64,000 nucleotides of DNA from Lingula anatina. Its lineage: Eukaryota > Animalia > Brachiopoda. Positions 1-54,400 of the stretch are shown in pieces. The stretch covers positions 17,320,534 to 17,384,533 of the forward strand of contig CM120644.1 of assembly GCA_051362555.1 (NCBI GenBank), given 5' to 3'. The notes under the pieces are model-generated. The model worked only from the letters and a program-made list of their open reading frames with translations, did no database searches and had not been told where the DNA came from. Numbering within the stretch: position 1 is the stretch's first letter; each line of letters begins with the position of its first letter. The position numbers and the translations under genes were made by a program.

Positions 1-131
1 TTATCCACAGAAGGCCTTGCACTAAATTGATCTTGGCTGCGAAAAACACTAATTGTTTTAGCAGCATTTGAAGTTTTCAGAAGAAATATATCCTCATTTC
101 TTGTTCTTTCTTATTTTTTGTGTGTGGGAAG

Positions 132-235
132 AATGCAAAGAAAAATCTCAGTCCCAGGAAAAACGTCTTCCAACGGTGGTGTCAAAGGGAGGACCACAAG
201 GCGCATCACCCTCACCGAGTCAATCTTCTGCCAAG
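132..235 (+). CDS. Probable upstream coding exon of the GIMAP-Hint gene (low-complexity linker ECKEKSQSQEKR...SQSSAK)
   Basis: T-rich tract followed by AG at 130-131, donor AAG|GTAAAT at 235/236 in phase 0, matching the phase-0 acceptor at 2310. The gene start is probably upstream of the window. Confidence 0.6.
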
Positions 236-1134
236 GTAAATTCAGAGTATTAAATTTCAGAACTAGCAGAAAGGACAAATTATTTAATATAATAATTTAA
301 ATTATTTAATATAATTTGTCCATGCTTAAAGTCGGTCTAACATAGACACAAAAGGCGCGACGAATCAGAAACCGTTCTAATGACGTAATCAGGTTGCTTA
401 ACATGAGATTTATCATATTTTATGGCAAATTTTCTCTTGGTTCAAAGACAAGTCAAGCTATTTTTTCGTGCAGTAAGAAGTACTTTTTGGCGTTCTCTCC
501 AATTTTTGGTACTTGCGGCTACAACTGTAGCGACAATTTTAGCTTAATTAAAAAGAAAAGCTCGATTTTAACCACATTTTTTCAGTTGTGATGAAGCCTT
601 TCTTTAACGACAGTATATTATACAGAATTTTAATTGTTATAATTTATTCCTTTTAAGATACTGTGCACAAATGTTCAAAGGCACACTGCGTCCTTTTCTG
701 AAAGCTGTTTTTTCATGCCTCCAGAAATCGGAAGGGATGTTCTGTTCTTATATACCGGACAAAAATATGCCACCAAGTGATGACGTAATATATGTTCATT
801 TTTTTTTTTTTTTTGAAAAAAAATTCAGAACAGTTATAGTGCAATAACTCTCTGTGAACTTGCTAGAAGTTAATCTCTAAGTACTGGAATATTTGAGGAC
901 CTAAGTTAAATTCAACAATATCCAAAAATGTTGACATAGTTCTCAATATATAGACTTAGAGCCATTCTTTCATGTTGGACTCAGACACTGTTTCATTTTG
1001 CTTATGACAGTAACGAAATGAAATTTAGAACTTTCTAAACTAATCTTGATTATCGTACTATTCTCAGTGGTTTTGGATAGATTTGTTTTTGTGATAAAGA
1101 AAAAGCTGATAAAATTACAAGGCAAAATACATCA

Positions 1135-1187
<53 letters not shown>

Positions 1188-1211
1188 CCAAGGTCAAATG
1201 AGCATTGTATG

Positions 1212-2230
1212 TGTTGAATCTTCAAAATCTCCAAAATCCCCCAAAGCATGATCAAGTTTAGCTCGGAATGCCACAAATGTCTCACAAATATGTCACTCCA
1301 AAGTATGTCGATGGAACAATATGTTTCAGAAAATTAGGCTTAGGGTCAAGAAATTTCAATATCTAAGCGATTTGGGGTTAACAAAATCCAGGATGGTTAT
1401 ATCCTTAGCAATACTATACTGAAATATTTAATCTTCAAAATCTCCAAAATCCCCCAAAGCACGATCAGGTTTAGCTCGGAACCATGTTGATTTGCCAGTA
1501 ACAAATCCGTGCACCTGATTTAGAGATCTCATTTATTATTCCAATGCTCGTTTTGTAGGAGATCGATCATTCTTATTGAACCAACCGAAAAGCTTTGAGC
1601 TTGTTTTCCCGGTAGAAAACTACAGAGCGCTGTTGTGGTTCACGATTGCTGCAATCGTATCTTATAGAAATACCTTTGATATTAAGATATCTAATGGAAA
1701 TGTGAAACAAGAAGATATGTATAAATACATTATATGAAGTTTTGTTTGCACAGAAACAACATAAATAGATTTGTTTGAAGATATCTAACCCCCAAAAAAG
1801 CGGGTTCATATTTGTCAGTCTGTAATTGAATAATGAAGAGTGAATGTTTTTAAATCACACTGTTGTCTTTTAAGACATTGCTTGAGTGTAAACAGATGCG
1901 TTTTCTAACAAAGGCGAAATAAAGCAATACTCAAGTGGCAATAGGTGTGAAAACAGGTTTTCTTTCATGGGCTAACCAACTTAGGCCTACCTGGAACATT
2001 TTCTTGCAATTTGAGTTCACGTCTTCAAACCAGGTTTAGTTGCCCTAAGATGAGTTTTTTTTTTTAATGCACAGAATGCCAAGTCGTATATTAAAGCCAC
2101 AGATATCTCACTCTAAAATATGTCAACGGAACAAGATGTTTCAGAAGATTAGGCTTGGAGTCAAGGTATTTTAATATCTAAGCGATTTGGGGTTAACGAA
2201 ATCCAGAATGATTATATCATTCGCAATATA
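1212..2230. repeat. Dispersed direct duplications in the GIMAP-Hint intron
   Basis: ~1217-1268 repeated at ~1430-1480 (aatcttcaaaatctccaaaatcccccaaagc..tttagctcggaa); ~1295-1412 repeated at ~2104-2228. Confidence 0.75.
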
Positions 2231-2309
2231 GGCCTATATATCTATTATTTTAAAATCACATTTTGATACCTCATATTTAATTGACTCACATAAACGGTTA
2301 TTTACACAG

Positions 2310-3683
2310 GTACAGAACGAGCTGAAATTGGTTCTGATCGGCAAAACTGGCCACGGCAAGAGCGCTACAGGCTGCACTCTGCTGGATGACCTTGGACTAT
2401 TTAGGGTGTCAGAACTCGGGGAGAGCGAAACATCTGTGTGCATTCGTAAGGTTAGGAAGGTGAATGGTAGGAAAATTTCAGTTACGGACACTCCAGGTCT
2501 GTTTGACACAAGGCGTCCCCAGGAAACCACGTTTCGCGAGCTGTCTCGCTGTCTGCTTCTGGAACCAACTGGCTTTGATGCCATATTGGTTGTGTGGAAG
2601 TACGGAACTCGTTTGACAGAGGAGGAAAGCGACTCTTTGAAGCTTATCAAACTGATCGTTGGCCCCAAAGTTTTTGACTACGTGATCGTGGTGATTTCTC
2701 ATGGGGACGAATTTCAGGATAATAACGATAGGCGGCAGGCCACAGGACAAGCCTTGATGACAGAGGCGGAATATATAGAGAGGCAGCCTATGGCCTTCAT
2801 GACGTTTGTCACTCAGGATATCAAGAACAGGTACGTCTTCCTTGACAACAGCATCCGGTCTCGTTCTCGTGCTGAAAAGCGGGCAGAACTTTTAGATTTG
2901 ATTGATAAACTCGTGGTGACCAACAACGGTGCTAGGTACAGGGATGAGTTTTATAGCGCCGCCTCCGAGGTTCTGGAAGAGATGATTCATCACGGCGATG
3001 TCTCCGAGGGGCTGGAGAAATTGTACGATCAACTGCCCGCGGATCGAAAGAGAGACATCGAATCAAAGCTGTCTGGAAGAGTACGCGCTATCATACAGCG
3101 TCGTGGTGGAAGCAGAAAGGCGTGCTTCCCCGGTAATTCTACAGTTCTAACACCTGCGATGAAACGGAAGCCCATGAGGGATTTAAAGGTGGGGGACTCT
3201 GTACTCGTGACAACACGGACAGGTCAAATGAGATTCGAACCCGTTTTTACGTTTGGTCACGCGTGCTCTGACCACGTGGCGAACTATGTCATGCTGACCA
3301 CAGAAACCGGGGCTCAAATCACCCTAGCGCCTGGTCACTATGTCCACGTGTGTAGCGAACGCGGAACTGTCCACCTTGTATCAGCCCGACGTGTCACTCT
3401 GGGGGCCATGCTGTTAATTTATGTTTCTGACAACACGCCCTGCCTGCGAGCAGATATAATTATTGACATCCAGTGCGTTCAGCGGACCGGTCAGTTCAAC
3501 CCGCACACGCCCAGCGGTACCCTTGTAGTGGACAACGTGCTGGCCTCGTGCTACACAGACACCGTGCCACGGACACTGGTCAAGCTGACACCAGCTTGGA
3601 CATTGTACAGATTGAGCCCAAGTCTTCTGAAAGTGCTTTATAAGAGAAAACAGCGTAAAGCTCTAACGTGGTCTGAGAATTAG
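2310..3683 (+). CDS. AIG1/GIMAP-family GTPase fused to C-terminal Hedgehog-type Hint (Hog) domain; large terminal coding exon
   Basis: Acceptor tttacacAG|GTA at 2309/2310, in frame with the 2328-3683 ORF. GIMAP motifs: G1 GKTGHGKS, G2 SETSVC, G3 DTPG, conserved box PTGFDAILVV, G4 SHGD, G5 LDN. Hint motifs: A|CFPGNSTV (Cys at 3123), MRDLKVGDSV, ITLAPGHYV, FNPHTPSGTLVVDNVLASCY (ends 3554), then an amphipathic SRR-like/polybasic tail. Confidence 0.93.
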   Translation, partial: VQNELKLVLIGKTGHGKSATGCTLLDDLGLFRVSELGESETSVCIRKVRKVNGRKISVTDTPGLFDTRRPQETTFRELSRCLLLEPTGFDAILVVWKYGTRLTEEESDSLKLIKLIVGPKVFDYVIVVISHGDEFQDNNDRRQATGQALMTEAEYIERQPMAFMTFVTQDIKNRYVFLDNSIRSRSRAEKRAELLDLIDKLVVTNNGARYRDEFYSAASEVLEEMIHHGDVSEGLEKLYDQLPADRKRDIESKLSGRVRAIIQRRGGSRKACFPGNSTVLTPAMKRKPMRDLKVGDSVLVTTRTGQMRFEPVFTFGHACSDHVANYVMLTTETGAQITLAPGHYVHVCSERGTVHLVSARRVTLGAMLLIYVSDNTPCLRADIIIDIQCVQRTGQFNPHTPSGTLVVDNVLASCYTDTVPRTLVKLTPAWTLYRLSPSLLKVLYKRKQRKALTWSEN

Positions 3684-6600
3684 TTATAACAGAAATGTAA
3701 CCGTTTTTTTTTTTGTGTGACGTGTGTGTGTGCTTCCCGAAGAACCTGAGTTTTAACAGAGCTTTAATATAATGGGCATAGAATGAGTCCATAGCATGTC
3801 ATGTAGTCCCGTATCTTCTACTAATTAGGTCTGTGCAAAAGTGCTGCAATACGTTATTTATAATGCACTGAGACCTGTAACCAGCAATTTCTAAGATGGA
3901 ATTTTTTCCTGAAAAATTGGTCTTTTTTACACTCTTTGTTGAGCCAGCTTTAAAAATGACATTGAAGCTAGATCAAATTTTGATTCAGCGCGGACAAATT
4001 TCTGTCAAAAAGGCGATTCTTTCGAACATGGCATCATTATAATACGTTTTGTGAAGACATTTCCCCATTAAATGCGGGCCAAGAAGACCGAGAACTCATT
4101 CTCAGCAGTATGAGATTTGATTCTAACACTGGAGCTTTAGCGGAACAAGGTTAATCAAGTTTTATCGACTTTAGACGCTGGAAGTTGATTATAAGATACC
4201 CGGAGGACGGTTGTACATGTGGCCTGACTGTATTGCGAGAAGTTATCACACCGACCCTGCTCCCAGCACGTTTAAGTTAGATCAGATATTGTCTGATTGA
4301 CGTAATCTGCCGAGCAAAATTGGTGTCTTCATCCGATTCAAAATGGCCATCATGTTATCTGAACGTCTGATGACGTCATACATACTTGTTCCGTTCTAAG
4401 ATTGTCTGGTTGTGTGTACGGACGCAGAAAAGTGGCTGTGGAAAATCACTTCTCCTGAATTCTTGTAGTGCCAGTGGATAATAGATTGAAAAAGCATTGA
4501 GCATTTTTCAAGATAATTACAATCGATACAGAGAGATACTTTTTTCTCGTCAATTACACTTCTTAGATATGACGTCGACTCAAGAGCTCTAAATTAAATG
4601 AGGATACTACTATTATCTTTACTGATTTCTTAAAATTTCAATATATTCATGTTTCACATATTTCAAAAGGTCTGTCTTGGATTTCTGTTGCCGACAATCA
4701 GATACAGCTGTATCTGAAAAAAAATCGAATTTATTCCAAAAGATTAGCCACCTTAAATATGAGCTAGGGCGTGTTTGGAACTTAATTTCCTAACAAACAC
4801 CATTATGTAGTCCCCAATTCAAAAAGTCGCCATTAGAAGTTTGAAAGTCTATGGACGGATTTGCCCCAGCTACACTGTGATATACTCAGCATAGAACCCC
4901 ATCCCCACCCCTTTTTGTTCCATTTTCTGTCTGTGGGTGTCTGAGGTCTAGAAAGGGAAATATCTCACTGTACAGGGTGAGCAACTTTATCACGGAATCT
5001 GTAAAAGACACAGTTGTTAATTGTTGTCAGATAATGCTAAATGCAACGGGTTTTGTTAGAAGCTCCATACTTCTTCGTGCCTTATCGCAACTGACTTTAT
5101 TTTATAATTCAAAACGTCAAGCAAACGAGCTTTCGATGTACAAGAGTAAATATATAACACTGTCTATCCCGAAATTTATCATCGTCTTTATCATTTCAAT
5201 CTTTTCATAGTAAAAGACCTTTGAATACTTCAAACAAGTAGTGAGAAAATTGTTTTGCTATCTGCTATGACTTTACGGCACAATTACTTTCAATATGCGG
5301 AAAACACTACAATAAACGAACTCTTTGATCAACCCATGCACTAGTTCGAACATGATTCAAGTAGTCTGGAAGTCGTCGATCAATAAGCGTATAATGAAAG
5401 GAAAACAGATATATATCTCTTTGCCAGAAAACCCAAGTGCAGAATACGGCAACACGATAAAACGAGTTCACAGCAAGATCAACTTAAAGCGGGAGTATGT
5501 TAAATGACGTCATCACTCCAGGAGATTGGTTAACGTGGGATTTTAGAGTGGCAGAAGCGATGTGGTTCCCAACATAATTTAGTCATTCATATACGTCATT
5601 TTTGTCTTTTCCGTTTTAAGTTAGATCTGCTGGGAACACAACTCTAGTCTACAGTATCATCTAGTTTCTTGATATGCTGCGGAATGAAAAATATTGACAA
5701 CGTCTCGGGGGTCTAACTCTAAATCATTTAGAATGGGCAGCTTTATACTTCAATTTAGATTGCCAGCTCCCAGGCAAGTAGTCTGATTTTCTGCCTTAAT
5801 GCATCGAGATGCTGCTCAGAGGAAACTGATCTTATAAACTTATCCACAGGGGTTACAATATAATGTCTTTATTTGCTTATCTGGGCGAACAGACCAATTT
5901 ATAGAATATCATCTCGGATTTAAGAGCTCTGAAAATGTTGCCAAGGTAGTACGGACCGATATATGATTCTGTTATTGGCATCTGTTGTACCAACGGGATT
6001 ACTTTAAATATAAAACATGCAACTCTTTCTGTGGAACAACGACTCACTTGCTAGCACTTCTAAAATGTTTTTAAATCACTAAGTACCACAAGAATCTTTT
6101 ATGTTTCCACGTACTTTGATTTCTTTGAATAGATAGTAAACTGGAATCGCTTATTGTTTGAAAATTCAAAGAAACTTTTTTAATTTGTAATTTTTAACAC
6201 ATTATGAAGGATACAGCGTTACAACAGGACTGTAGTAAGAAGACCATTCTAAAAACTCTAATATTTATTCAAACACTCAAAAAATATTGCCTTGTCTATT
6301 TTGAATATAATTTTTGTATGTTCATTTTTAAAACCATCACATATTAACAAAAAAAGCTGAAAAAATGTTCATATAAAATATACATCGCGTATGAAGTCAA
6401 ATAGAAATCAGAAATCTTACAATAGTTATTCCTGTGAACACAAGAAACAATTTGGTGAGCTGCCACAATTTTTTGTTCAAATTTGACTTTATCACGTCCC
6501 AGGAACATGATTATACACGTTACCTATAGTTGTATGGCTTTGGCGCAATCTCAAACATTACACGCAACAAAATTTCGCCTTAACATTTTCAATAAGTTAT

Positions 6601-16170: not shown

Positions 16171-18066
16171 GAACACGCGCAATCGAAAGCGTTATACTTA
16201 CCATCCGGGCCCATGTACCTGTCCAAAAGTATATCCCAGGTCTCCCGTTATTCATTAAACCCATTCCATTCTGATCAATCTGAAGAAGAAAATTTCCTCC
16301 CCTCAAAACGCTGTTAATTTATTCATGGCTGTAAAAAACATCTTTGTTTCATAGAAAGTTTGGAGTGGTCTAGTTTCTGAAATTCAAAAGAATCGTCTAT
16401 TACGGCTGCGGTTGTAGTTAATTTCTTACTTATTTTATCAAAATCACGAGGACCTGGCGTACTTAGTATCAGGAAAATGCACGTCACGTGTCACGGGCTT
16501 CTTGTCAACAAAAAGTAGACGACGTTTACCGTCAAAACTGCTGCTGAGATGAAAAGAGTTCACATAGAATAATCGAATTATGAGTAATACGGGCTCAAAA
16601 TATGCTACGTGAAATCATCATCCGGTGTCTATCAAGCTTCATTGAATAGTGAGAAAAAAAATAGATGTTAGATGCGATTGATACCCGGTGTGGTCATAGA
16701 TGGGCGTCATTTATGCTCAAACAAGGACTTCATACAAATCAGTTAAAAAAAAGATAAGACAGGTGATTCTTTTGTTTTCAAAGTTTTTTTGCGTTGATCA
16801 CCTTCATGACTTTATTTTTCCAAGCTTAAGACATGTAAACATAATTAAAGTAGGGTTAAATATTGATATTCGAGGTCACTCAAAGACATTAAATGGCGGG
16901 AGGTGGCAAATATTTCAACCAGGGAAATAAGAAAGCATTAACATACAGCTAGTGCCGTGTTAACGGTAAATGTGAAGTTGGCAATGATCTCTGAGGAGAA
17001 AAACTTAAAAAAAAATAATGACACCAACTCTTCAGTTTTGTCTTCGAAAGAGCAATTTCGGGCACAATTTAAAAAAAGTAATTTTAGTCAAAATTGTTCT
17101 TATTTTTCTTTAAACACTGAAAATTTTAGCAAATTTAACTCAGAATAATCATGGCATATCCTTCATGCACTACAAGGTTTCAATCGTAAGTAATTTCTTA
17201 GTTTTTGTAAAACGGCTCTAATAGCCACATTTTCCTGGTTTACTACTGGTGCTAATTTATCATCAATGTAAGAAGGCTAAGATTTTCAGTCTTAAGACGA
17301 AGACCAACTTTCGACAAACTTATTACATTATTTTATTTAAGGCCTAAACTCATACCTCGATAACTCCCTTTTTGGTCCTTGACGTGTCCATTATGTCCGA
17401 CTCCACTTTGATCGAAAACAACGCATTTGCCCAGAAGTCCACATGAATTTTCTCCAGTGCTGACTGAAAGTTCCAGTTTTGCATAGAGTTATCGAAAACG
17501 TACCAGGGTCCCAGCTGCCTGCCGTTGTCGTTGTTGTTGATCATGTTAATAAGCGGCGTCCCTTTGAGTCTCTCCGTGTTGTACTGAGAGGTGCAAGACT
17601 TGTAAAAATCCTTAACTTTTCTCTCGTAGGACCAGTCAACATTCCGCTGTATGGGACTGAACAAAATGCGCATGATTTTCCTCTGGTTGAATAAATACGC
17701 GTCCTGAATGACAGTTCTTTCGGTAGAACTAGCCCCGATTTGCATGAACTTCGGGTAGTTACCGCAGGCGAAGGTGTGGAAGTCGGTGCATGGGTCCACG
17801 CTCGCGTTCATCAGCCGTATCATGTTGGACGCCTCCCTTAGGCATCCTTTGGTAACGCACTGCTCCGGGGGCGGGCTCTGGGACGCTCGAACACCCAAGA
17901 GCACAATCATCAGTATGGTCAGAAAGATGAAGACGGCGCCCAGAACGCCCAAAATTACCTCGTTTTTATTGCACGTATTCCCTCCTGCATAGTTCTTCCC
18001 AAAATTACTACTAGGAATAACCTTTTCTATGTCTTCGACCTCTCCATTTACGCTCCCCTTTTCCAT
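6813..18066 (-). CDS. Neprilysin/endothelin-converting enzyme-like (peptidase M13) type II membrane protein, predicted catalytically inactive, 778 aa, 14 exons
   Basis: Exons 18066-17356, 16279-16202, 15604-15458, 15080-14994, 14460-14324, 13682-13460, 13169-13071, 12761-12684, 12118-11833, 11332-11190, 10972-10895, 10393-10298, 7555-7482, 6912-6813, all GT-AG with compatible phases. N-terminal TM, then CVTKGC...DPCTDFHTFACG, WMDEPTK, PAGMFQFP, FFIAFAQ, AFNCPAKSAMNPEKKCVLF*. HEXXH reads HNLLH. Confidence 0.92.
8029..8270. mobile_element. ~250-bp foldback MITE family B copy (other copies ~35717-35982, ~50745-51010, ~60605-60860)
   Basis: Shared arms gatcgatccaactc..cgctgaatgcaatcag and their inverse ctgattgcattcagc..gttggatcgatct in four dispersed copies. 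Confidence 0.7.
8273..10282. mobile_element. Harbinger-like non-autonomous element enlarged by internal insertions; short relatives at ~34141-34350 and ~36238-36440
   Basis: TIRs GACTGCATTCCCAC...GTGGGAATGCAGTC flanked by TTA; subterminal sequences (gatccacctggatcga..aactccctgggggttca; gatagatcgatc) recur in the ~210-bp copy at 34141-34350; internal hairpin and ~90-bp tandem repeats (8770-9050). Confidence 0.65.
10701..10883. mobile_element. ~180-bp CAGG-terminated MITE (family A)
   Basis: TIRs CAGGCCCGTAGC...GCTACGGGCCTG; flanking CTAACAC duplicated; internal poly-G/C and aaaaggtccact motifs shared with other copies. Confidence 0.85.
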
Positions 18067-19102
18067 TTTTCTATTTAAATAAATAAATATATATTTAGAC
18101 CTCAAGATCCGCTCATCGGGCAGTGTTTTCGCATCTGTCAGTAAGGCACAGGGTACATTACATATAGTATATATACTAGTATATATGCGTTAATGTAGAT
18201 CAACTTAGGGGCGTTAATAAGGACGGCTTGGTGACAGACACGGGGTTAGGAGGGTTATCTCTGTAGTATTGGTATACACCGTTTGTACTCCAAAACCGAC
18301 CCGATATAAGACCTAGAATATGCCCTCGACTTCAATCACGCACCTGGAGTTAGAGAGTTAACTGGAGACGCATCTTAAGCATCAAGATAACGGTGGATTC
18401 TCACAAATATTTCTGATACGTTCTAAATGGAGTACAGGCGGGATAAGTGGTCACAATCCAGAAAAAGATAACGCTGGCGAGGGGGGCATTAACATGAGCG
18501 TAGTTGTACATTGAGCGAGTTATTATCTTAATATAGGCCCTATCAAGTATCATTTAGTCAAAAGAAGTGGACTGGGACACTTGGCCTTTTCGATTCCCAT
18601 GCTAAAGACAGAAGTGTATGTGTGTGTGTGTGTTTGCGGGCACGGATATTATTTCACACACACACACTTCAAACGACAACAAAATTTTAATTGTGTTTTC
18701 TAAATCAAATTTTCTTTTTGCTAAATAAATACGCATCAAATTTCTTTAAATGCACATACAGATTTTCTCCGAACCATGAATTGTCATCAATACAATTTCA
18801 AACTATACACTGCTTTTTATGTCATCATAAAATAACCATAGCTAGGCCTATTATTGATAAAATTGATAAAAAATGATACTTGGGTTAAACTGCACACTTA
18901 AACCAACGGGAAGACGTGGAGGAGTTATCCAGTCATTTAAACCACTATAAATATTGATAACAGATAGATACAAATTACATTATCATGACATAAAACAGCA
19001 CTTCTCTAAGAATTACAGTGTATGCCCGTTTCGTTTGAAAGGAACGAAACACGAGAAATACACTACATGAGCAAGAGGGCCCTTCTGCCGGTGTAATGTA
19101 AC

Positions 19103-21630: not shown

Positions 21631-44258
<22,628 letters not shown>

Positions 44259-51432: not shown

Positions 51433-54400
51433 CTACTTTATTCTTATTTGAAGGTCGTATTGTAGAGGAAATAAAACGGCGACAACTACGACAGAGGCAA
51501 ATGTCACAATCAGAAACAACCGGTCCAAGATGACAGCATAAAGTTGCCATTCCAAGTGAATCTTTAGCTTCTCTCGCTTTTTCTCGCTCTCGTATGACAG
51601 AGTCCTCCTGGCGCCTTTGATTTGCGCCAGAATAGCATTCAGAGTCAGGCGGCTGTGCAACTTGCCATCGTTTTTTATCAATGAATCGTTATCCGTGTTG
51701 GACTCGCCTGTAACTGGAATATCCAAAACATCCATTGATATGTCCTGAAATTGTAATGATCGGACGGTTAAAATAGAAGAATAAAAAAAAAACCTTGCAA
51801 AGTAAATGTTTTTAAAATATCGTTTTGCCTTCGAAATAATAATAATAATAATAATAAATTAAACTAGGAATACATTTATCTATCTATCTAAAAATAACAT
51901 CCTCAGTGAAAAATTTACATCAGAGTGGAAATGAAAATTAACGGTGTGCATAAACTGAAAGGTAATATGCAACTTAATTAAACACAAAGGAAAAAAAATT
52001 AAAACTATACTCTGCAATAAAGCATACTAAATCAAAAATCGATGCCAACTGGTTATTACGTTTTTCTCTTCATCTGCACTAGTATCAAATATTTTCTTCG
52101 CCTCTTTTCCGAAGCCAAGTACTCTTCCAATGCAGCCCACTACCAGATGGCGCTTGCAGTACGTCAGTGAGTGCCCTGATCCTTGTTCTAGATATGCTCC
52201 ATAGGACCAACATGAGAGGACAACAGACAGAACGATGCGGCAAATCACGGACACAAAGAATTGAGCTGAAATTGAAATGTGCCATTGCATTAGATGTGAC
52301 TGGAAAAGGTTTTACCGAACGATGCGGCATATCACAGACACAAAGAACTGAGCTGAAATTGAAATGTGCGATTGCTTTAGATGTGACTGAAATAGCTGTA
52401 TGTTAGATTGGTTGTGTCTTGTGTGAATTAATATTTGGTAGAGTAAGCTAGAGTTGTGTTGGTTGTGATGGAAATGATTGCACATCTAGTTGTATTAGTT
52501 GTGACTGATACTGTGTAACGTTGCATTAAGTGTCATGGAAGGGGTATTCACTGGCTAAATTAGCTCCGTTAAACTGGGAAGATTACTTGGTGTAAACATG
52601 TACATACATTTTATAATTATACCAGCAAAATATTGAGAGAGACTATCTACATACATGTGCATCTTATAATTTCACCAGCAAAGTTTTGAAGAGAGATAGA
52701 GAGAGAGAGAGAGATGCTTGTGTCGTACCTATGACTGGTACTTCGTTACTCCCTGTGACACCCATAGGAACAATGTCTTTGCTGTACACAGTAAACACAA
52801 AGAACCCAACTAACTGAATCAATGCGAATGTAATCCTCTGAGGGCTACTAACAGGAAGCAAAAACACACACAGTGGCAACAAGGTGAAAACGATAAACGG
52901 GAAAATCACTGTGTACCAATACGTCACAGACCGGCGTGCAAACCGGAAGGTGAAAGTTGACTTGACGTAGACGCGGTTCAAAAACGGCGTTGAGGCACTT
53001 TGTGATGACAGTGACGTCACTTCCCATTCGATGTTCGGAATCATGTCTGCAGCCGAGCTAGAAGTTTGAACTACGGGGCGGGGTTGGGCTGTGATGGCGA
53101 CAGGGAAGGATAAGACCGTTATGTTGCAGTCCTGGTAATCAAAAGGAAAGAAATACAGGTCCGTCTGGCATGGAACGTCCACCGGTCGCCCCGGAGTGGT
53201 CCAAGTTATTAATCCCGTTGAGTCAATGGAAATACTGTCGTCTGCCGTCTGTTTTGCTATTTCTTTGTAATGCTGAAAGCTGGTAGATGAATGTATTTGT
53301 TAGTAATGTAAATAAATAAACAAATAAATAAATTTATAAACATCTTTTATGCAATTATCCAACATAGATTTTAATGAAGAAGTTGGACCATGTTTTATCC
53401 CATTATGCCTACTTTTTGACATCTGACCATGGGCCTTAATTTGAGTAAATGTGTTTTTGACTTTAACTTAACCCGAAAAGTGTCTAAAACCAGTATTCTG
53501 CAAATAATTTTGACTATGGGACTCGACTTAGTGTACCTAAAAAATCTCGTTGAAATAACACTAAAGCCAGAAATCAGTTCCTGTCAAACCCCGTGAACGG
53601 CCCTTTGTAATTTTTATACCATTCACGCCTGCTTTTAAAAGTTACCTTTCTAGGTAGCGGACCTCTGGGGTCCAAACGTCGTTTGGCTGAACATGTATTG
53701 TGTTCACACCGCCATATTGCTGACGGTTCCATTGGAGCCGCTCATCTAACCAACTCTAGAAAAAAGAGAGTTTTGGGGATGATAAGGAGCCAAAGAGGCG
53801 TGGCTCGTGTTAACATATAAAAATGCGTTTTTTTTTCTTCTTACCGTATTTCTTACTTGTGTTCTGTAAAAATGAAAAAAAAGAAGAAAAAACGTTAATT
53901 AAATCTTTAGGTTAAAGGGTGGTCAAAAGTTGGGGTAGGGTTCTGTGGTACTAGTGCACGTACTGCTGAATTTAGACTTAATTTGTTAGAAAATACTTAC
54001 AGTCTGAATCAAAATATCCATTCCAAGCGCGGTGTGATCAATATTCTGTAATCATGATTAAAATTAGAAAAAAAATTGAGTCAGACTTCAGTGTAATATT
54101 ACGAAATACGTTTCATACGATGCCCCATAAGCACCACGCTAATCGACGCTAAGGGGTGCATGCAGGCCATCGTAGTTCCAATTCTTATGCTTTACTAACA
54201 ACTAAAACGGAAATAATATAAAGTATAGTAGGCTATGACCAAATAAGTCGGGGACCTCCTTGTGGGCCCCCACTTATCGTAATCCTCAGTTGAAACTATA
54301 ACACTCGTGAAGTCGACGTTAGATTATTTATATTTAGTGTATATAGAAAGACGACATACTATTTTGAATCACTCATTTATACAGTCAAAAAAGCATGAAG

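What the first reader, a model, noticed from the sequence alone, without database searches (positions are those of the whole stretch)
2310..3683. GIMAP/AIG1 immune GTPase fused to a Hedgehog-type Hint autoprocessing module: candidate self-cleaving, self-conjugating GTPase system
Seen: one uninterrupted exon encodes a complete AIG1 G-domain (G1-G5 and conserved box), a helical linker ending IIQRRGGSRKA, then CFPG-start Hint domain (Cys at 3123), His of block B, the C-terminal GTLVVDNVLASCY block and an SRR-like tail; no TM anchor. Known: Hedgehog/Hog Hint domains make a thioester at the N-terminal Cys and transfer the upstream polypeptide to a nucleophile (cholesterol in Hedgehog); GIMAPs are septin/dynamin-related immune GTPases, many anchored to membranes by C-terminal TM helices. 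Inference: here the Hint replaces the TM anchor, so the GTPase could be released at Ala|Cys and either lipidated next to its polybasic tail or covalently attached to a protein or pathogen target, giving a triggerable intracellular immune effector. AIG1-Hint architectures may already be mentioned in invertebrate AIG-family surveys (not verified), but I know of no biochemical characterisation.
Basis: partly seen in the sequence, partly recalled or inferred. Interest (0 to 1): 0.9.

Follow-up and report, generated by a model that had tools for sequence, protein, structure and literature searches.

The report
Immune GTPase with worn self-cleaving domain
An animal gene joins an immunity-type GTPase to a Hedgehog-type self-cleaving domain, a fusion already reported in fungi, corals, snails and lancelets; this copy lacks residues that its relatives keep, so it likely cuts itself only weakly and likely attaches no sterol.

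Summary
The fusion is real. One reading frame (2310-3683) encodes AIG1 (Pfam E 1e-41) and Hint (E 5e-32); the predicted Hint fits Hedgehog's at 1.3 A, and a few sense-strand RNA reads cover both halves. It has no start codon: it is a last exon, and the N-terminus probably lies upstream of the window.

The architecture is not new: fungal GmGIN1, Acropora, Biomphalaria and lancelets are in print, and this scan noted a diatom case earlier. I found 42 such fusions among 151 hits, from five animal phyla.

The block-B Thr is Ala here (Ser/Thr in 42 of 42 relatives). The sterol-recognition tail lacks the helix-1 His and Arg and most of helix 2. The basic patch before the cut site is not conserved. 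The matching Hedgehog mutants lose most activity or cholesterol transfer, so lipidation of this copy is unlikely, although its Hint is still under purifying selection (7 nonsynonymous, 10 synonymous).

More interesting in passing: the family keeps a sterol-type tail and a natural Asp46-to-His swap, and 13 of 42 members share an N-terminal region that looks MACPF/stonustoxin-like in the one member folded.

The parts
132..235 (+). Candidate upstream coding exon (AG at 130-131, GT at 236-237); the frame that ends in phase 0 reads as a 34-residue Ser/Pro/Lys-rich linker without Met, so more exons should lie before the window
   Evidence: One read pair in run X18: one mate with about 68+26 bases in bins 1-200 and 201-400, the other in bin 2401-2600; one of the two runs on into unlike sequence; frames. 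Single pair; the junction itself was not seen.
2310..3683 (+). Last coding exon, 457 codons plus stop; acceptor AG at 2308-2309 (alternatives 2314-2315 and 2320-2321, all phase 0)
   Evidence: no indel listed inside the frame in four DNA runs
2325..2978 (+). AIG1/GIMAP G domain, residues 6-223, motifs G1-G5 and conserved-box Arg80 present
   Evidence: Pfam PF04548 E 1.4e-41; GIMAP7 alignment; Foldseek; listed variants 3 nonsynonymous, 14 synonymous
2979..3122 (+). Helical linker, residues 224-271, ending in a basic patch; Ala271 is the -1 residue
   Evidence: Helices in the model; the last helices align with Lingula P0124, which lacks the four-residue basic insert and has about 200 more coiled-coil residues
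3123..3557 (+). Hedgehog-type Hint domain, residues 272-416: Cys272 (C1), His317 (Asp46 site), Ala340 (Thr69 site, deviant), His343 (H72), Cys414 (C143)
3558..3683 (+). Reduced sterol-recognition-like tail, 41 residues: helix 1 keeps the Pro and the LY..SP end but lacks His and Arg and is about 2 residues short; a basic stretch follows; helix 2 is cut off three residues after the Trp
3684..4400 (+). Probable 3' untranslated region
   Evidence: RNA depth on the same strand continues to the 4201-4400 bin in three runs; the end was not mapped

Best explanation
This is the last exon of a transcribed GIMAP-family GTPase gene that ends in a Hedgehog-type Hog (Hint plus tail) module, and in this copy the module likely cleaves only slowly and likely transfers no sterol, so the protein would stay mostly full length and would dock on membranes through its amphipathic, basic tail. 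Shown: the fusion, the folds, low-level sense transcription, the residue pattern, and purifying selection on both domains. Inferred from Hedgehog mutants: Cys272, His343 and Cys414 can still form the thioester at Ala271-Cys272, but the loss of the block-B hydroxyl slows it, and without the helix-1 His/Arg and helix 2 the thioester would be resolved by water or a thiol rather than by a sterol. Inferred from GIMAP biology (recalled): the G domain dimerises in a GTP-dependent way and scaffolds on organelle membranes in immune or stress responses. The ancestral state in the family is likely an active Hog that releases the GTPase with a sterol at its C-terminus.
For: Ala at the Thr69 site in the query against Ser 31 and Thr 11 of 42 fusions; Ala in 2 of 103 other Hint hits. 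Drosophila T326A (the same site) is greatly reduced in both DTT and cholesterol reactions (PMC9163320, passage). Tail after C143: 43 residues against 51-75 in 41 of 42 fusions, the other being a fragment. H-x4,5-P in 34 of 42 and H-x4,5-P-x-R in 28 of 42, neither in the query; the His, Pro and the later Pro and Trp are at least 90% conserved in a 25-row alignment. In human SHH, H374A and R381A do not undergo cholesterolysis, and deleting helix 2 gives cleavage without cholesterol (PMC7242414, passages). Ala340 and the stop codon are unchanged in the three DNA runs whose difference lists are complete for this stretch (X2, X3, X5; three studies), so they are not an assembly error. Variants in 3250-3680: 7 nonsynonymous, 10 synonymous against 322:110 sites, binomial p 0.004, or 0.02 allowing for transition bias.
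Against: No activity was measured; everything rests on transfer from Hedgehog at 34% identity. C1, H72 and C143 are all kept, and His at the Asp46 site is active in Hedgehog (PMC12054796, passage) and accepts more sterols (PMC8529194, passage), which might offset the other losses. Both Lingula relatives also have Trp at the Arg site, so that change may be an old, functional subfamily trait. Selection on the Hint does not say whether chemistry or structure is being kept. Membrane binding by the tail is untested. The missing N-terminus could hold a signal peptide or another domain that changes the setting.
Confidence: 0.55

Rival explanations
1. The Hog module of this copy is fully active: it releases the GTPase and attaches a sterol or similar lipid next to the basic patch, giving a lipid-anchored GIMAP.
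For: C1, H72, C143 and an active-type His46 are present; the fold matches 6tyy at 1.3 A; Hedgehog Hog domains process unrelated N-terminal partners (PMC7242414, passage); the Hint is under purifying selection.
Against: Thr69 site is Ala; helix-1 His and Arg are absent; helix 2 is cut off; each matching change blocks or sharply reduces cholesterol transfer in Hedgehog. The basic patch is not a family trait.
Confidence: 0.2
2. The Hog module is decaying: it has lost activity and is carried along on a still-useful GTPase.
For: Several deviations fall on conserved sites. Listed variants are 10 nonsynonymous to 11 synonymous in Hint plus tail against 3 to 18 in AIG1 plus linker, Fisher p 0.043, from a list that shows only 40 of 89 differences plus 3 RNA variants.
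Against: Nonsynonymous changes in 3250-3680 are still fewer than neutral (p 0.004-0.02); no indel is listed in the frame in four runs, including a contig that differs at 67 of about 1530 bases; three catalytic residues are kept.
Confidence: 0.15
3. The thioester is used to attach the GTPase covalently to a host or pathogen protein, as a triggerable immune effector.
For: The sterol-binding features are reduced while the thioester residues and purifying selection remain; 6y75, a Tetrahymena BIL2 domain, appears among fold neighbours, and such domains ligate ubiquitin-like proteins (recalled).
Against: No partner, no target-binding domain and no conserved -1 residue or upstream motif (13 different -1 residues in 42 fusions). 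The Hint is Hedgehog-type with SCY, not a splicing or BIL type. The block-B change should slow thioester formation.
Confidence: 0.07

Closest known systems
GmGIN1 of Glomus mosseae and the Mucoromycota AIG1+Hint cluster
   Same: AIG1-like GTPase followed by a Hog domain, no signal peptide (PMC2362128, passages); top ESM Atlas hit is a 59-member cluster with Hint 100% and AIG1 100%, score 0.92
   Different: GmGIN1 has good motifs J and K and a motif-L-like region by that paper; the query's tail lacks the K-motif His/Arg and an L-like helix. I recall reports of in vitro self-processing for GIN1, but the 2002 paper was not held, so this is unverified.
Invertebrate AIG1+Hint GIMAPs (Acropora millepora, Biomphalaria glabrata, Branchiostoma)
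   Same: Same domain order; four transcripts in Acropora (PMC3723955), a hint/hedgehog AIG gene in Biomphalaria (PMC7053062), CARD and HINT architectures in lancelets (PMC12373286). Nearest named protein found: Lingula anatina XP_013410208.1 (P0124), 30% and 33% identity over two blocks
   Different: The query has a short linker (47 residues against 257 in P0124), Ala at the Thr69 site and a truncated tail. The passages I saw give no residue-level analysis or biochemistry.
Hedgehog C-terminal autoprocessing (Hog) domain
   Same: Hint fold (rmsd 1.2-1.3 A), C1, H72, C143, SCY motif
   Different: N-terminal partner is a GTPase; Ala instead of Gly at -1; His at Asp46; Ala at Thr69; no HPR or HWY motif
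Human GIMAP7 and GIMAP2
   Same: G domain with G1-G5 and conserved box; best sequence and fold hit 3zjc
   Different: C-terminal Hog module in place of a coiled coil or TM helices

Membership tests
AIG1/GIMAP GTPases | AIG1 domain above the Pfam cut-off | tested here: met
   142.6 bits against cut-off 27
AIG1/GIMAP GTPases | G1-G5 motifs and conserved box | tested here: met
   Alignment to GIMAP7/4/5, motif check
AIG1/GIMAP GTPases | GTP binding, hydrolysis and dimerisation | not testable with these tools
   Needs biochemistry
AIG1+Hint fusion proteins (GIN1-like) | AIG1 then Hint in one reading frame | tested here: met
   42 relatives with both domains by Pfam
AIG1+Hint fusion proteins (GIN1-like) | Both domains in one transcript | tested here: inconclusive
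   X13 has depth in every 200-base bin from 2201 to 4400, X12 has none in 3001-3200; 56 reads in all; no joint listed, but the threshold is 3 reads
AIG1+Hint fusion proteins (GIN1-like) | Single origin of the fusion | tested here: inconclusive
   Quick trees do not resolve it; 10 of 30 'Hint-only' rows checked were truncated fusions, so the label counts on the tree mislead
Hedgehog-type Hog autoprocessing domain | Hint fold | tested here: met
   Pfam 111.7 bits against cut-off 29.7; Foldseek TM 0.94 to 6tyy
Hedgehog-type Hog autoprocessing domain | Cys1, block-B His, Cys143 | tested here: met
   C272, H343, C414
Hedgehog-type Hog autoprocessing domain | Block-B Thr (TxxH) | tested here: not met
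   Ala340; Ser/Thr in 42 of 42 fusions
Hedgehog-type Hog autoprocessing domain | General base at Asp46 | tested here: inconclusive
   His317, as in 41 of 42 fusions; D46H is active in Hedgehog
Hedgehog-type Hog autoprocessing domain | Sterol recognition region: helix 1 with H-P-R and helix 2 with HWY-like hinge | tested here: not met
   His and Arg absent, helix 2 cut off; requirements from PMC7242414 and PMC7906309
Hedgehog-type Hog autoprocessing domain | Cleavage and sterol transfer | not testable with these tools
   Needs an assay

The most novel reading that the evidence does not exclude
AIG1-Hog proteins are an overlooked second class of animal proteins that attach a sterol to themselves, putting immune GTPases (in some molluscs and a brachiopod together with a MACPF-like domain) on membranes; this copy is a retuned member that has dropped sterol recognition but kept, under selection, a slow triggerable thioester that releases the GTPase or hands it to a non-sterol partner.
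Probability: 0.2. Interest if true: 0.75.

Novelty: new member of a known kind. Interest (0 to 1): 0.3.

Why it matters
For this locus, little: it is one more, apparently weakened, member of a published architecture. For the family, a test would matter: Hedgehog is described as the only protein class whose Hint thioester is intercepted by cholesterol (PMC7242414, passage), and the relatives found here keep a sterol-recognition-like tail across five animal phyla together with a natural version of the engineered Asp46-to-His swap. This copy is a ready natural negative control for such a test.

Tried and rejected
No whole genome is held for the window, so paralogues and the upstream exons could not be searched; tblastn of the query and 42 relatives against the window found no second AIG1 or Hint piece at E 0.01, and their N-terminal extensions gave no convincing hit. 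The word-based search with the Hint region alone returned 1 protein of 846 candidates, so the HMMER library search was used instead. No RNA holder was listed in the run index; raw RNA runs were laid instead, and depth was too low to list splice joints. Whether the most divergent DNA run (X10) has Ala340 is unknown, because 49 of 89 differences were not shown. A frameshift as the cause of the short tail was considered: the two other frames stop sooner (read) and no indel is listed in four runs. A TM anchor was rejected. Trees of the AIG1 and Hint domains did not settle one origin against several. The original GIN1 paper and the D46H paper were not held. A cnidarian GIMAP survey does not mention Hint (PMC8857920, 0 occurrences). 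A second structural aligner run on the abalone relative did not start. No complex was predicted, as no partner is proposed.

Full report
1. What is in the sequence. The only long plus-strand frame near the finding is 2232-3683. From 2310 it gives 457 residues with AIG1 at 6-223 (E 1.4e-41) and Hint at 270-451 (E 4.9e-32). Sequence search of the PDB returns GIMAP7, 4, 5, 2 and 1 for the first half and Hedgehog autoprocessing domains for 272-416. An AlphaFold model from an 87-row alignment has mean pLDDT 90.5; Foldseek matches GIMAPs and the Hedgehog Hint (6tyy rmsd 1.3 A, 1at0 1.2 A). The window is animal-type DNA: it also holds pieces of an M13 peptidase and a ligand-gated ion channel. That it is an invertebrate is inferred from the relatives.

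2. Gene structure and expression. There is no in-frame ATG before G1, and the three candidate acceptors are all phase 0, so this is a last exon. Four RNA runs from three studies, of which about 6 to 25 in 100 reads were read, gave 30, 22, 2 and 2 reads on 1-6000, all in one orientation, which fits a plus-strand RNA if the libraries are of the usual stranded kind. X13 has depth in every 200-base bin from 2201 to 4400, the domain junction included; X12 has none in 2201-2400 and 3001-3200. No joint was listed, but that needs three reads. One pair in X18 lies partly at about 133-226 and partly in 2401-2600, which fits an exon at 132-235 whose phase-0 frame is a Ser/Pro-rich linker without Met. The true N-terminus is therefore probably upstream of the window and is unknown. 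No genome is held.

3. Relatives. A HMMER search of 1.84 billion representatives with residues 86-457 gave 4709 hits at E 0.001, of which the best 150 were listed. Of these 150 plus one, 42 carry both domains, 103 Hint only and 6 AIG1 only; Pfam confirmed both domains in 42 of 42. This is a lower bound: 10 of 30 'Hint only' rows checked carry part of an AIG1 domain. Named fusions (30 of 42 looked up, two more named) come from Brachiopoda (Lingula), Mollusca (Haliotis, Potamilus, Tegillarca, Physella, Bulinus, Plakobranchus, Gigantopelta), Platyhelminthes (Macrostomum), Echinodermata (Holothuria, Apostichopus, Anneissia) and cephalochordates (Branchiostoma). The ESM Atlas adds a 59-member Mucoromycota cluster (score 0.92). 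The nearest named protein is Lingula P0124, at only 30-33% identity.

4. Active site against the family. In 42 fusions: Cys1 in 40, His72 in 42, Cys143 in 38, His at the Asp46 site in 41, Ser or Thr at the Thr69 site in 42 (31 and 11), and 13 different residues at -1. The query has Ala271, Cys272, His317, Ala340, His343 and Cys414. It follows the family except at block B. The active site of the Hedgehog Hint is C1, D46, T69, H72 and C143, and D46H still processes in cells (PMC12054796, passages); D46H also accepts more sterols (PMC8529194, passage). T326A, the same site as Ala340, is greatly reduced in both DTT and cholesterol reactions (PMC9163320, passage).

5. The tail. After Cys143 the relatives have 51-75 residues (41 of 42; one is a fragment) and the query 43. 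The family pattern is a first helix with His, Pro and Arg (H..P in 34, H..P.R in 28 of 42) and a later G-x-P-x-W-like hinge before a second amphipathic helix (32 of 42 by a loose pattern that overcounts). The query keeps the Pro, lacks His and Arg, is about two residues short in helix 1 and stops three residues after the Trp. In human SHH, H374A and R381A give no cholesterolysis, and removal of helix 2 gives cleavage without cholesterol (PMC7242414, passages; model in PMC7906309, passages). Against this, both Lingula relatives also have Trp at the Arg site. The basic patch before Cys1 (net +4) exceeds all 42 relatives and includes a four-residue insert absent from P0124.

6. Are these changes real, and is the domain decaying? 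Contigs of four DNA runs from four studies list no indel in the frame. For X2, X3 and X5 the listed differences over about 3250-3800 add up to the contig totals (12, 11, 9), and none touches codon 340 or the stop; X10 cannot be judged because 49 of 89 rows were hidden. In 3250-3680 there are 7 nonsynonymous and 10 synonymous changes against 322 and 110 sites (p 0.004; 0.02 with a more cautious null). Over all 42 listed coding variants the Hint and tail show more amino-acid change (10:11) than AIG1 and linker (3:18), p 0.043, but that list is incomplete. So the Hint is constrained, perhaps less than the GTPase.

7. Mechanism. Most likely (0.55) the protein stays largely whole, cleaves slowly if at all, takes no sterol, and uses its amphipathic basic tail as a non-covalent membrane anchor. 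Rivals: active sterol transfer (0.2), decay (0.15), attachment to a protein target (0.07). The fusion, folds, transcription, residue pattern and selection are shown; all chemistry and localisation are inferred. An immune role rests on the family; the RNA runs carry no challenge data that I could see.

8. What is in print. AIG1+Hint is described for fungal GmGIN1 (PMC2362128, passages), four Acropora millepora sequences (PMC3723955, passage; its additional file 4 was not read), Biomphalaria glabrata (PMC7053062, passages), lancelets (PMC12373286, passages) and Rhizophagus transcripts (PMC6956056, passages). Ten full-text searches showed no biochemical test of an animal member, but the library lacks most subscription papers, the GIN1 papers were not held, and I recall unverified reports of GIN1 self-processing.

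9. In passing. Thirteen of the 42 fusions share a related N-terminal extension. For abalone P0143 this region is closest to SNTX/MACPF-like clusters in the ESM Atlas (0.97), gives weak Pfam MACPF scores below the cut-off in 2 of 11 proteins scanned (E 0.0015 and 0.0046), and its model matches the stonustoxin structure 4wvm (E 7.6e-11, 403 columns, 14% identity, rmsd 11). One search for MACPF, AIG1 and Hint together returned only the lancelet paper, whose passages that I saw do not describe this architecture. Whether the window's gene has such a domain is unknown.

10. Verdict. A real gene, a new member of a known architecture, and probably a weakened one. Interest 0.3.

Noticed in passing
Relatives P0143, P0012 (Haliotis), P0126 (Potamilus), P0135 (Lingula), P0139, P0140, P0155 (Physella), P0138, P0169 (Bulinus), P0151 (Plakobranchus), P0130, P0153, P0164: 13 of 42 AIG1+Hint proteins share an N-terminal extension of 100-481 residues. 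In P0143 it resembles the MACPF/stonustoxin fold (ESM Atlas 0.97; Foldseek 4wvm E 7.6e-11). A MACPF-like + GIMAP + Hog architecture was not described in the passages I saw and may deserve its own look.
   Followed up: partly
Relatives, 42 fusions and 103 other Hint hits: His stands at the Hedgehog Asp46 site in 41 of 42 fusions and 95 of 103 other hits: the engineered D46H swap is the usual natural state in these non-Hedgehog Hog domains (the sample is biased towards the query).
   Followed up: partly
Relative P0191 (Apostichopus japonicus PIK58467.1): CARD + AIG1 + Hint occurs in a sea cucumber, although PMC12373286 calls the CARD and HINT architectures unique to amphioxus among animals. P0255 adds CARD and DED, and P0142 a GT4-conflict domain.
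   Followed up: partly
window 17350-18189 (-): Frame with a Peptidase_M13_N match (E 1.3e-16), probably one exon of a neprilysin-like gene.
   Followed up: no
window 52664-53299 (-): Frame with a neurotransmitter-gated ion-channel ligand-binding match (E 1.2e-10), probably one exon of a Cys-loop receptor.
   Followed up: no
window 22385-23767: Minisatellite, 48-base unit, about 29 copies, 95% matches; it explains the long open frames at 22302-23862.
   Followed up: no
window 5001-5800: A few plus-strand-type RNA reads in two runs, separated by an uncovered gap from the main 3' region; perhaps a longer 3' end or another exon.
   Followed up: no
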